Source of the DNA: a phage
Length of the DNA: 409 nucleotides
Sequence record: AY167111.1
Direction: 5' to 3' (one strand)
Position numbers and translations under genes: made by a program. The notes beneath the pieces are model-generated. The model was given only the letters and a program-made list of their open reading frames with translations, was not told where the DNA came from and did not search any database. Positions 2 to 409 of this stretch are shown here, one piece after another; within the stretch, counting starts at the first letter, position 1; each line of letters opens with the position of its first letter.

Positions 2-409
2 GGGGCATCTGAGGCCGGTGTATGTATCCAGAATGATATAGGTGGACGTCTGCGAATTAATAATGGCGGAGCTATTCCCGGTGGTGGCGGTGGCGGCGGT
101 GGTTATTCACGAGCCAACAACTGGGCGGGAAAATATGTTTGTGGTGGCGGTGGCGGTCGTCCATTCGGCTTAGGCGGAAATAATGGTGCTCGATGGCCTG
201 GTGGTAATGCTAGTTTGACGTCTCCGGGTGCTGGCGGTAATACTGGTACAAGGTATTATGCAGGTGGAGGTGGTGAAGTTGGTCAGCCAGGACAATATGC
301 TAATCCAGGTGCTGGTTATTCAACACCTCCGACAAGTCCTGGTGCTGCTGTAGCAGGATCAGCTCCAACATGGCAGAATGTTGGAGCAATATATGGTCCA
401 AGAGTATAA
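2..409 (+). CDS. 5'-truncated CDS, C-terminal part of a glycine-rich protein; most likely a phage distal tail-fibre adhesin / receptor-binding domain (T2-type gp38-like). Stop TAA at 407-409.
   Basis: Frame 2 is open from nt 2 to 406 with no stop; the other two + frames hit stops within the first 45 nt (TGA 10-12, TAG 43-45). Translation: [135 protein letters not shown]. The supplied 64-aa ORF (215-409) is the tail of this frame, reported from an internal TTG. Product assignment comes from the polyglycine-motif / variable-segment architecture and phage-like codons, not from a database hit. Confidence 0.6.
81..96. repeat. Copy 1 of a perfect 16-bp direct repeat (gtggtggcggtggcgg) inside the Gly8 tract
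   Basis: Identical 16-mer at 81-96 and 141-156, checked base by base; flanking bases differ (80 g vs 140 t; 97 c vs 157 t). Spacing is 60 nt, i.e. 20 codons, in frame. Confidence 0.85.
141..156. repeat. Copy 2 of the perfect 16-bp direct repeat (gtggtggcggtggcgg) inside the Gly5 tract
   Basis: Same 16-mer as 81-96; encodes (C)GGGGG. Both copies use only GGT/GGC glycine codons. Confidence 0.85.

What the first reader, a model, noticed from the sequence alone, without database searches (positions are those of the whole stretch)
2..409. Glycine-rich C-terminal domain resembling the polyglycine-motif receptor-binding domain of T-even gp38 adhesins
Seen in sequence: three oligo-Gly runs (PGGGGGGGG at 77-103, CGGGGG at 140-157, AGGGG at 260-274) plus shorter Gly-rich stretches, separated by short segments carrying W/Y/F/P, ending a protein at 407-409. 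Established knowledge: T2/K3/Ox2/S16-type gp38 adhesins have a C-terminal domain of conserved glycine-rich motifs that form a polyglycine-II helix sandwich, with hypervariable receptor-contacting segments between them. Inference: this window encodes such a domain. If so, it is the host-range determinant of the phage.
Basis: partly seen in the sequence, partly recalled or inferred. Interest (0 to 1): 0.5.

Follow-up and report, generated by a model that had tools for sequence, protein, structure and literature searches.

The report
T2-type phage gp38 adhesin tip

Summary
The observation and the interpretation both hold. Frame 2 (nt 2-406, stop 407-409) encodes 135 residues with 31% Gly, and the three Gly runs sit exactly where stated. 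The peptide matches Pfam PF05268 "Phage tail fibre adhesin Gp38" (118 bits against a cut-off of 25). It is 95% identical over all 135 residues to the crystallised PP01 gp38 receptor-binding domain (PDB 9V85) and about 51% identical to S16 gp38 (6F45). The DNA is 405/409 identical to gene 38 of E. coli O157:H7 phage AR1, where the gene lies in the canonical 34-35-36-37-38-t cluster. There is no match in E. coli genomes, plasmids or GTDB genomes, and no similarity to the unrelated T4-type gp38 chaperone.

The window covers beta-helix strands, PGII helices 3-10, receptor loops B-E and the conserved C-terminus. PGII helices 1-2 and loop A lie upstream of the window. Family variability concentrates in the published loops (2.33 vs 1.00 bits).

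One small oddity remains. All four differences from AR1 are non-synonymous and found in no other record searched. One of them, Q161R, is a reported PP01 host-range mutation. Two others (G129A, A150P) hit otherwise conserved scaffold positions.

Verdict: already known, low interest.

The parts
2..409 (+). 3' 408 nt of gene 38: residues 125-259 of a 259-aa T2-type gp38 adhesin, plus the stop codon
   Evidence: Translation. 405/409 nt identical to AR1 gene 38, record positions 158107-158515 of the CDS at 157736-158515. PF05268 profile positions 86-218 of 218.
2..79 (+). Conserved beta-helix rung(s) preceding the long PGII extension (gp38 125-150; core motif [18 protein letters not shown] at nt 23-76). 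Carries three of the private substitutions: E4 (D128E), A5 (G129A) and P26 (A150P).
   Evidence: Invariant I9 N11 G14 L17 R18 I19 N21 G23 I25 across 16 gp38 sequences. The assignment to the beta-helix is inferred from the S16 description, in which the PGII sandwich is built from two extended turns of the beta-helix (PMC6851490).
80..103 (+). Glycine-rich motif G8 (gp38 151-158), the central PGII helix 3
   Evidence: S16 'helix 3; 151-GGGGGGGG-158' (PMC6851490) aligns column for column. G28-G32 are invariant.
110..139 (+). Receptor loop B / hypervariable segment (gp38 161-170, [10 protein letters not shown]). R37 is the Q161R substitution.
   Evidence: PP01 loop-B is Q161-V170, and residues 158-170 are essential for adsorption. 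Y159A abolishes infectivity, and Q161L, K168N and Y169G reduce it (PMC12892980). High-entropy block at window residues 35-47.
143..178 (+). Glycine-rich motif [12 protein letters not shown] (gp38 172-183)
   Evidence: G48 G49 G51 G52 R53 P54 G56 G59 are invariant in 16 sequences.
179..196 (+). Receptor loop C (gp38 184-189, NNGARW)
   Evidence: PP01 loop-C is N184-W189. Variable block.
197..238 (+). Semi-conserved Gly-rich segment [14 protein letters not shown] (gp38 190-203)
   Evidence: G76 is invariant and the neighbouring columns have low entropy.
239..256 (+). Receptor loop D (gp38 204-209, NTGTRY)
   Evidence: PP01 loop-D is N204-Y209. PP01 G208 cross-links to OmpC loop 5 (PMC12892980 abstract). 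AR1 and the window have R at position 208.
260..292 (+). Glycine-rich motif [11 protein letters not shown] (gp38 211-221)
   Evidence: G88 G90 G91 G94 G97 are invariant.
302..322 (+). Receptor loop E (gp38 225-231, NPGAGYS), the main OmpC-contacting loop in PP01
   Evidence: PP01 loop-E is N225-S231. Y230 cross-links to OmpC loop 7, and A228 and Y230 are functionally required (PMC12892980). The window sequence is identical to PP01 here.
335..406 (+). Conserved C-terminus [24 protein letters not shown] (gp38 236-259), which returns to the beta-helix domain
   Evidence: G114 A116 V117 G119 P122 W124 G128 G132 are invariant. The 'conserved C-terminus' contributes to the beta-helix domain (PMC12032242).
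407..409 (+). TAA stop codon of gene 38
   Evidence: Same stop position as the AR1 CDS end.

Best explanation
The window encodes residues 125-259 of the gp38 adhesin of a Tequatrovirus of the AR1/PP01 group (T2-type long tail fibre). In the virion, one gp38 monomer caps the gp37 trimer at the distal tip of each long tail fibre. The conserved glycine-rich motifs fold into left-handed polyglycine-II helices packed as a three-layer sandwich. This rigid scaffold presents the short hypervariable loops B-E (all in the window) and loop A (just upstream) to the cell surface. Those loops bind extracellular loops of the porin OmpC of E. coli O157:H7, with LPS sugars contributing. This reversible first adsorption step largely sets host range. 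Shown here: family membership, near-identity to a crystallised gp38 RBD, the conserved-motif/variable-loop pattern, and the gene's context in relatives. Inferred from the literature on 95-97% identical proteins: the fold, OmpC binding and the roles of individual loops.
For: Pfam PF05268 GP38, 118.1 bits (cut-off 25), profile 86-218/218. PHROG 2056 'tail fiber protein; host specificity', E=3e-38. PDB 9V85 (sfGFP-PP01 gp38 RBD), E=1.5e-73, 128/135 identical, no gaps; 6F45 S16 gp38, E=1.1e-14. Megablast: 216 phage records, all enterobacterial T-even-like phages, best AR1 at 405/409. AR1 context 34-35-36-37-38-t, and the same 37-38-t order in the 18 other T2-type phages retrieved. Full-length AR1 gp38 has Gp38_N (PF21721) plus GP38 (PF05268). 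Entropy is 2.33 bits in the PP01-defined loops B-E against 1.00 elsewhere, Mann-Whitney P=1e-10. The PP01 crystal structure shows a beta-helix, a PGII sandwich and loops A-E, and cross-linking and mutagenesis map OmpC contacts to loops D, E and B (PMC12892980). AR1 uses OmpC (Yu et al. 2000, as cited in PMC9603124).
Against: Nothing substantive. The window's own upstream sequence cannot be seen, and its source contig was not found, so the N-terminal domain and g37 neighbourhood are inferred from 99% nucleotide identity to AR1. Two private substitutions (G129A, A150P) fall at positions conserved in all 15 other gp38 proteins examined. They could affect folding, or they could be sequence errors. 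De novo structure prediction was uninformative (pLDDT 35).
Confidence: 0.97

Rival explanations
1. It is a T4-type gp38, a chaperone ('assembly catalyst') that helps gp37 fold and is absent from the virion, and not a receptor-binding adhesin.
For: Several database records label homologues 'long tail fiber assembly catalyst' (for example H116, H119 and H124). The gene occupies the same slot between g37 and t as T4 gene 38.
Against: BLASTP finds no similarity to T4 gp38: E=45 for the window and E=17 for full-length AR1 gp38. The T4 RefSeq note itself calls the T2-subfamily gp38 'unrelated' and the adhesin. The Pfam adhesin family match and 95% identity to the crystallised PP01 receptor-binding domain also argue against it.
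Confidence: 0.01
2. It is a cellular or other non-phage glycine-rich protein, and the resemblance to gp38 is compositional only.
For: A composition of 31% Gly can produce spurious low-complexity matches.
Against: The match extends through non-Gly conserved blocks ([22 protein letters not shown], [13 protein letters not shown]), which are invariant across the family. There is no match in 5,426 E. coli genomes or 72,556 plasmids, and no confirmable relative in 185,579 species genomes. All 216 DNA hits are phages.
Confidence: 0.005
3. This rival concerns only the four private differences from AR1. They are not biological: they are sequencing or assembly errors, or deliberate edits, in what is otherwise plain AR1 gene 38.
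For: 0 synonymous to 4 non-synonymous changes, 3 of 4 transversions, clustered within 99 nt (P about 0.04). Two hit positions conserved in 15/15 (G129) or never Pro (A150). The nt 13/15 change GATGGC>GAGGCC can be read as a -1/+1 indel pair of the kind produced by miscalls in G+C-rich runs. None of the variants was found in any collection.
Against: Four of four non-synonymous changes is expected 29% of the time by chance. Q161R is exactly a reported selectable host-range substitution in PP01 gp38 (PMC6027323), which suggests real selection. The viral contigs negatives are uninformative because the positive control also failed.
Confidence: 0.35

Closest known systems
Escherichia phage AR1 gp38 (BAI83267.1 / AAG29755.1, 'adhesin')
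   Same: 405/409 nt and 131/135 aa identical. Same length to the stop codon. All receptor loops C, D and E are identical, including R208.
   Different: Four private amino-acid changes: D128E, G129A, A150P and Q161R.
Escherichia phage PP01 gp38 receptor-binding domain, crystal structure PDB 9V85 (PMC12892980)
   Same: 128/135 identical with no gaps. Loops C and E are identical, as are the functional residues Y159, K168, Y169, A228 and Y230.
   Different: Seven substitutions: the four private ones plus G208R (loop D), N236S and S257P, all three of which are shared with AR1.
Salmonella phage S16 gp38 (PDB 6F45), the founding PGII-sandwich structure
   Same: Same architecture, and the same G8 helix 3 at residues 151-158. 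About 51% identity over the window. GRMs and C-terminus conserved.
   Different: Different hypervariable loops (a shorter loop B, a different loop E). It targets Salmonella OmpC.
Phage T2 gp38 (BBC14865.1), the classical adhesin-type gp38
   Same: 52% identity, E=1e-9, with collinear GRMs and C-terminus. Same 37-38-t context.
   Different: Divergent loops. According to the literature, T2-like gp38 proteins bind other outer-membrane proteins such as OmpF, OmpA or Tsx (PMC12032242).

Membership tests
T2-type gp38 tail-fibre adhesin (Pfam PF05268 GP38) | Sequence match to the family profile above the curated threshold | tested here: met
   118.1 bits against a gathering score of 25, E=6.3e-34, covering profile 86-218/218. 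PHROG 2056, E=3e-38.
T2-type gp38 tail-fibre adhesin (Pfam PF05268 GP38) | Conserved glycine-rich motifs alternating with hypervariable segments, flanked by a conserved C-terminus | tested here: met
   In a 16-sequence alignment down to 43% identity, the Gly motifs and C-terminus are invariant. Entropy is 2.33 bits in loops B-E against 1.00 outside, P=1e-10.
T2-type gp38 tail-fibre adhesin (Pfam PF05268 GP38) | Polyglycine-II sandwich fold: shown by homology to solved structures | tested here: met
   95% identity, ungapped, over 135/135 residues to chain 9V85_A, whose structure is described as beta-helix + PGII sandwich + loops. The G8 run aligns with S16 helix 3.
T2-type gp38 tail-fibre adhesin (Pfam PF05268 GP38) | Polyglycine-II sandwich fold: shown by independent structure prediction | tested here: inconclusive
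   Single-sequence AlphaFold2 on the 135-aa fragment gave mean pLDDT 35.3 and pTM 0.18. The model is unusable, so no fold search was run.
T2-type gp38 tail-fibre adhesin (Pfam PF05268 GP38) | N-terminal gp37-attachment domain (Gp38_N, PF21721) upstream in the same protein | not testable with these tools
   It lies outside the 409-nt window, and the source contig was not found. It is present in AR1 gp38, 99% identical at the DNA level over the window: PF21721, E=2e-21, residues 1-40.
T2-type gp38 tail-fibre adhesin (Pfam PF05268 GP38) | Gene located immediately downstream of g37 (distal long tail fibre) and upstream of holin t in a T-even genome | not testable with these tools
   It cannot be seen for the window itself. 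It is met in AR1 and in every other T2-type relative retrieved.
T2-type gp38 tail-fibre adhesin (Pfam PF05268 GP38) | Binds an outer-membrane receptor and determines host range | not testable with these tools
   Literature only. PP01 gp38 binds OmpC of O157 (PMC12892980). AR1 uses OmpC (Yu et al. 2000, cited in PMC9603124).
T4-type gp38 (tail-fibre assembly chaperone) | Sequence similarity to T4 gp38 (NP_049864.1) | tested here: not met
   BLASTP E=45 (window) and E=17 (full-length AR1 gp38).

The most novel reading that the evidence does not exclude
The window comes from a natural or laboratory-evolved AR1-like phage whose gp38 carries the loop-B substitution Q161R. This change is reported to let PP01 infect ompC-null O157:H7. 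It is accompanied by two substitutions at otherwise invariant scaffold positions (G129A, and A150P immediately before the central PGII helix). On this reading it is a host-range or adsorption variant in which scaffold changes retune how the loops are presented.
Probability: 0.2. Interest if true: 0.25.

Novelty: already known. Interest (0 to 1): 0.1.

Why it matters
gp38 is the receptor-binding tip of most T-even phages. It is a favoured target for re-engineering host range, and AR1 and PP01 are used for detection and biocontrol of E. coli O157:H7. Recognising this window as an AR1-type gp38 allele predicts OmpC(O157) as the receptor and adds nothing new to biology. The only new item is a combination of four amino-acid changes not seen elsewhere, including Q161R. 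If real, they would be a small additional data point on how loop B and the PGII scaffold tolerate or exploit change.

Tried and rejected
1. Exact-match scans for the window's own contig found nothing. I scanned over the variant sites in viral contigs, metagenome contigs and genome contigs. A positive-control 35-mer shared with AR1 also found nothing in viral contigs, so those negatives only show that this allele group is absent from that collection.

2. The search for related loci with the family alignment gave no confirmed relative in viral contigs or genome contigs. Pattern hits were Gly-run noise.

3. A 125-nt blastn tested whether the 5' part of the window is a mosaic from another allele. 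It is not: AR1 remains the best match at 96.8%, and no record shares the variants.

4. Single-sequence AlphaFold2 gave pLDDT 35 and was unusable.

5. NCBIfam had no family, as expected for a phage protein.

6. Rfam, terminator and promoter scans of both strands found no RNA family and no terminator. There was one promoter-like site against 0.5 expected. The other-frame ORFs of at most 43 aa are by-products of the GGN repeats.

7. The T4 chaperone reading was rejected.

8. The original AR1 paper (PMC94728) is not held.

Full report
OBSERVATION. The + strand, frame 2 (nt 2-406) is open for 135 codons and ends at TAA 407-409. There are also five GG pairs. Gly makes up 31.1% of residues. In 5000 mononucleotide shuffles the mean was 11.6% and the maximum 20.7%, and only one shuffle kept the frame open. 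The other five frames have 4-10 stops and at most 8% Gly. Their ORFs of 43 aa or fewer are by-products of the GGN repeats. Rfam finds nothing on either strand. There is no terminator-like site, and a single promoter-like site against 0.5 expected. TRF reports only the short GGTGGC-type repeats that encode the Gly runs.

IDENTITY. Pfam returns one family, PF05268 "Phage tail fibre adhesin Gp38" (118.1 bits, cut-off 25, E=6e-34), matching profile positions 86-218 of 218, which is the C-terminal 60% of the family model. The best PHROGs family is phrog_2056, "tail fiber protein; host specificity" (E=3e-38). Against all PDB sequences there are two hits, and both are gp38 adhesins. The first is 9V85, an sfGFP fusion of the PP01 gp38 receptor-binding domain (E=1.5e-73, 128/135 identical, ungapped). 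The second is 6F45 chain D, S16 gp38 (E=1.1e-14). Megablast against 50,697 phage records finds 216 records, all T-even-type phages of Escherichia, Shigella, Yersinia, Salmonella and Proteus. The best is E. coli O157:H7 phage AR1 gene 38 at 405/409 nt. The window corresponds to AR1 gp38 residues 125-259 of 259, so window residue i is gp38 residue i+124. T2 gp38, the classical adhesin, is 52% identical (E=1e-9). There is no match in 5,426 complete E. coli genomes or in 72,556 plasmids, and no confirmable relative in one genome from each of 185,579 prokaryotic species. The gene therefore behaves as one confined to virulent T-even-like phages.

CONTEXT. The window itself shows nothing beyond the gene fragment, and its source contig could not be found. 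In AR1 the gene sits in the canonical order 34-35-36-37-38-t. The same g37-g38-holin order is present in PP01, BECP11, HY01, PE37, G4507, KMB39, UP19, CrRp10, T2, FL44, KIT03, fPS-2, fHoEco02, SQ17, KMB17, Phaginator and JC221. Full-length AR1 gp38 carries the Gp38_N attachment domain (PF21721, residues 1-40) plus PF05268 (residues 45-259). At 99% DNA identity, the same arrangement upstream of the window is a safe inference, but it remains an inference.

ANATOMY. The S16 structure description (PMC6851490) states that gp38 has three parts: an N-terminal attachment domain, a five-ring beta-helix, and a three-layer polyglycine-II (PGII) sandwich. The sandwich is built from ten glycine-rich motifs that arise from two extended turns of the beta-helix. 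PGII helices 1-2 come from an 18-residue extension and helices 3-10 from a 77-residue extension, and helix 3 is 151-GGGGGGGG-158. The PP01 crystal structure paper (PMC12892980) reports the same three elements and defines the receptor loops: A (119-124), B (161-170), C (184-189), D (204-209) and E (225-231).

These definitions map onto the window as follows.
- nt 2-79: conserved beta-helix strands ([18 protein letters not shown]).
- nt 80-103: the G8 run, PGII helix 3.
- nt 110-139: loop B ([10 protein letters not shown]).
- nt 143-178: [12 protein letters not shown].
- nt 179-196: loop C (NNGARW).
- nt 239-256: loop D (NTGTRY).
- nt 260-292: [11 protein letters not shown].
- nt 302-322: loop E (NPGAGYS).
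- nt 335-406: the conserved C-terminus, which rejoins the beta-helix.

The published residue identities all fall on the expected letters (Y159, K168, Y169, W189, T207, Y209, A228, Y230), which checks the numbering internally. Loop A and PGII helices 1-2 lie just upstream of nt 1. The window therefore holds eight of the ten PGII helices and four of the five distal loops, and it is not purely the PGII domain.

FAMILY PATTERN TESTED. I aligned the window with 15 other gp38 proteins down to 43% identity. The Gly motifs, RPFG, the beta-helix rung and the C-terminal AVxGSAPTWxNVGxIYG are invariant or nearly so. Column entropy averages 2.33 bits inside the PP01-defined loops B-E against 1.00 bits outside (Mann-Whitney P=1e-10). 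This is the defining conserved-GRM / hypervariable-segment pattern (PMC12032242).

MECHANISM. The following is shown for PP01, whose gp38 is 95% identical, and is inferred for the window. gp38 caps the gp37 trimer as a monomer, and the PGII lattice is a rigid scaffold from which the loops protrude. PP01 G208 (loop D) cross-links to OmpC(O157) loop 5, and Y230 (loop E) to OmpC loop 7. Loop E enters a cleft between OmpC loops 5 and 7, and A228 must be hydrophobic. Loop B residues 158-170 are essential, with K168 and Y169 near LPS sugars. AR1 also uses OmpC (Yu et al. 2000, cited in PMC9603124). The window is identical to PP01 in loops C and E and to AR1 in loops C, D and E, so OmpC of O157:H7 is the expected receptor.

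RIVALS. The T4-type gp38 chaperone occupies the same genomic slot, and some records mislabel the adhesin as an "assembly catalyst". It shows no sequence similarity, however (E=45 and E=17). A merely compositional resemblance to some cellular Gly-rich protein is excluded by the conserved non-Gly blocks and by the absence of any non-phage hit.

A SMALL ODDITY. The four differences from AR1 (nt 13, 15, 77 and 111) are all non-synonymous: D128E, G129A, A150P and Q161R. Three are transversions, and all lie within 99 nt. No phage record shares them. In a 125-nt blastn AR1 remains the best match at 96.8%. Four of four non-synonymous changes is not significant in itself (P=0.29), and the clustering is marginal (P about 0.04). 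For comparison, AR1 against PP01 shows 7 synonymous and 3 non-synonymous changes in the same region. G129 is Gly in 15/15 other gp38 proteins, and position 150 is A, C or G but never Pro. In contrast, Q161R is exactly a substitution reported in PP01 host-range mutants able to infect ompC-null O157:H7 (Morita et al. 2002, as cited in PMC6027323). In addition, Q161H arose convergently in four of four experimentally evolved PP01 lines, and Q161L lowers infectivity. I cannot tell whether the four changes are real (a natural or adapted variant) or errors. The nt 13/15 change GATGGC>GAGGCC can also be read as a compensating -1/+1 indel pair.

WHAT FAILED. Single-sequence AlphaFold2 on the fragment gave pLDDT 35, so no fold search was run. 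The fold claim rests on 95% identity to a solved structure. NCBIfam has no model for the protein. The original AR1 paper is not in the held library.

VERDICT. The feature is an already known gene of a well-characterised family, so novelty is "already known" and interest is low (0.1). The most novel reading still open is that the window comes from a Q161R-bearing host-range variant with unusual scaffold substitutions. I put its probability at about 0.2, and its interest would be modest even if true.

Noticed in passing
window nt 13, 15, 77, 111: All four differences from AR1 gene 38 are non-synonymous (D128E, G129A, A150P, Q161R). Three are transversions, and all lie within 99 nt. None is shared by any of the 50,697 phage records searched. 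G129 is Gly in 15/15 other gp38 proteins, and position 150 is never Pro.
   Followed up: partly
window nt 110-112 (codon CGA, R37 = gp38 R161, first residue of loop B): Q161R is a substitution reported in PP01 gp38 host-range mutants that infect ompC-null E. coli O157:H7. Q161H arose convergently in 4/4 evolved PP01 lines (PMC6027323), and Q161L reduces infectivity (PMC12892980).
   Followed up: partly
window nt 11-16 (GAGGCC; AR1 has GATGGC): The two adjacent substitutions can equally be read as a compensating -1/+1 indel pair in a G+C-rich stretch. That pattern is typical of base-calling error, but it could also be real.
   Followed up: no
window nt 79-103 and 143-157: The Gly runs are encoded by short tandem GGTGGC-type repeats (TRF period 9 x2.8 and period 6 x2.5). 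216 phage records share DNA with the window, but only 49 of them cover at least 80% of it. This fits the published idea that GRM-coding DNA acts as recombination joints for shuffling the loops (PMC12032242).
   Followed up: no
L001 (AR1) 5601-5629 and 6410-6439, outside the window: Between g37 and g38 there is a G+C-rich hairpin (GAGGGGC-TTCG-GCCCCTT) that abuts the g38 ribosome-binding site. The G4507 record annotates a terminator at the equivalent place. Between g38 and t lies AATAAATA, close to the T4 late-promoter consensus TATAAATA (the consensus is from my own knowledge), and the fPS-2 record annotates a 'predicted late promoter' there.
   Followed up: no
database records of homologues: Annotation of this gene is inconsistent. 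Many records call it 'hypothetical protein', and several call it 'long tail fiber assembly catalyst', which is the function of the unrelated T4-type gp38. One calls it 'tail protein and peptidase'.
   Followed up: yes
L001 (AR1) 2287-5598, gene 37: AR1 gp37 carries a C-terminal Peptidase_S74 'chaperone of endosialidase' domain (residues 993-1052, E=1e-12). This is an intramolecular chaperone module just upstream of where gp38 attaches.
   Followed up: no
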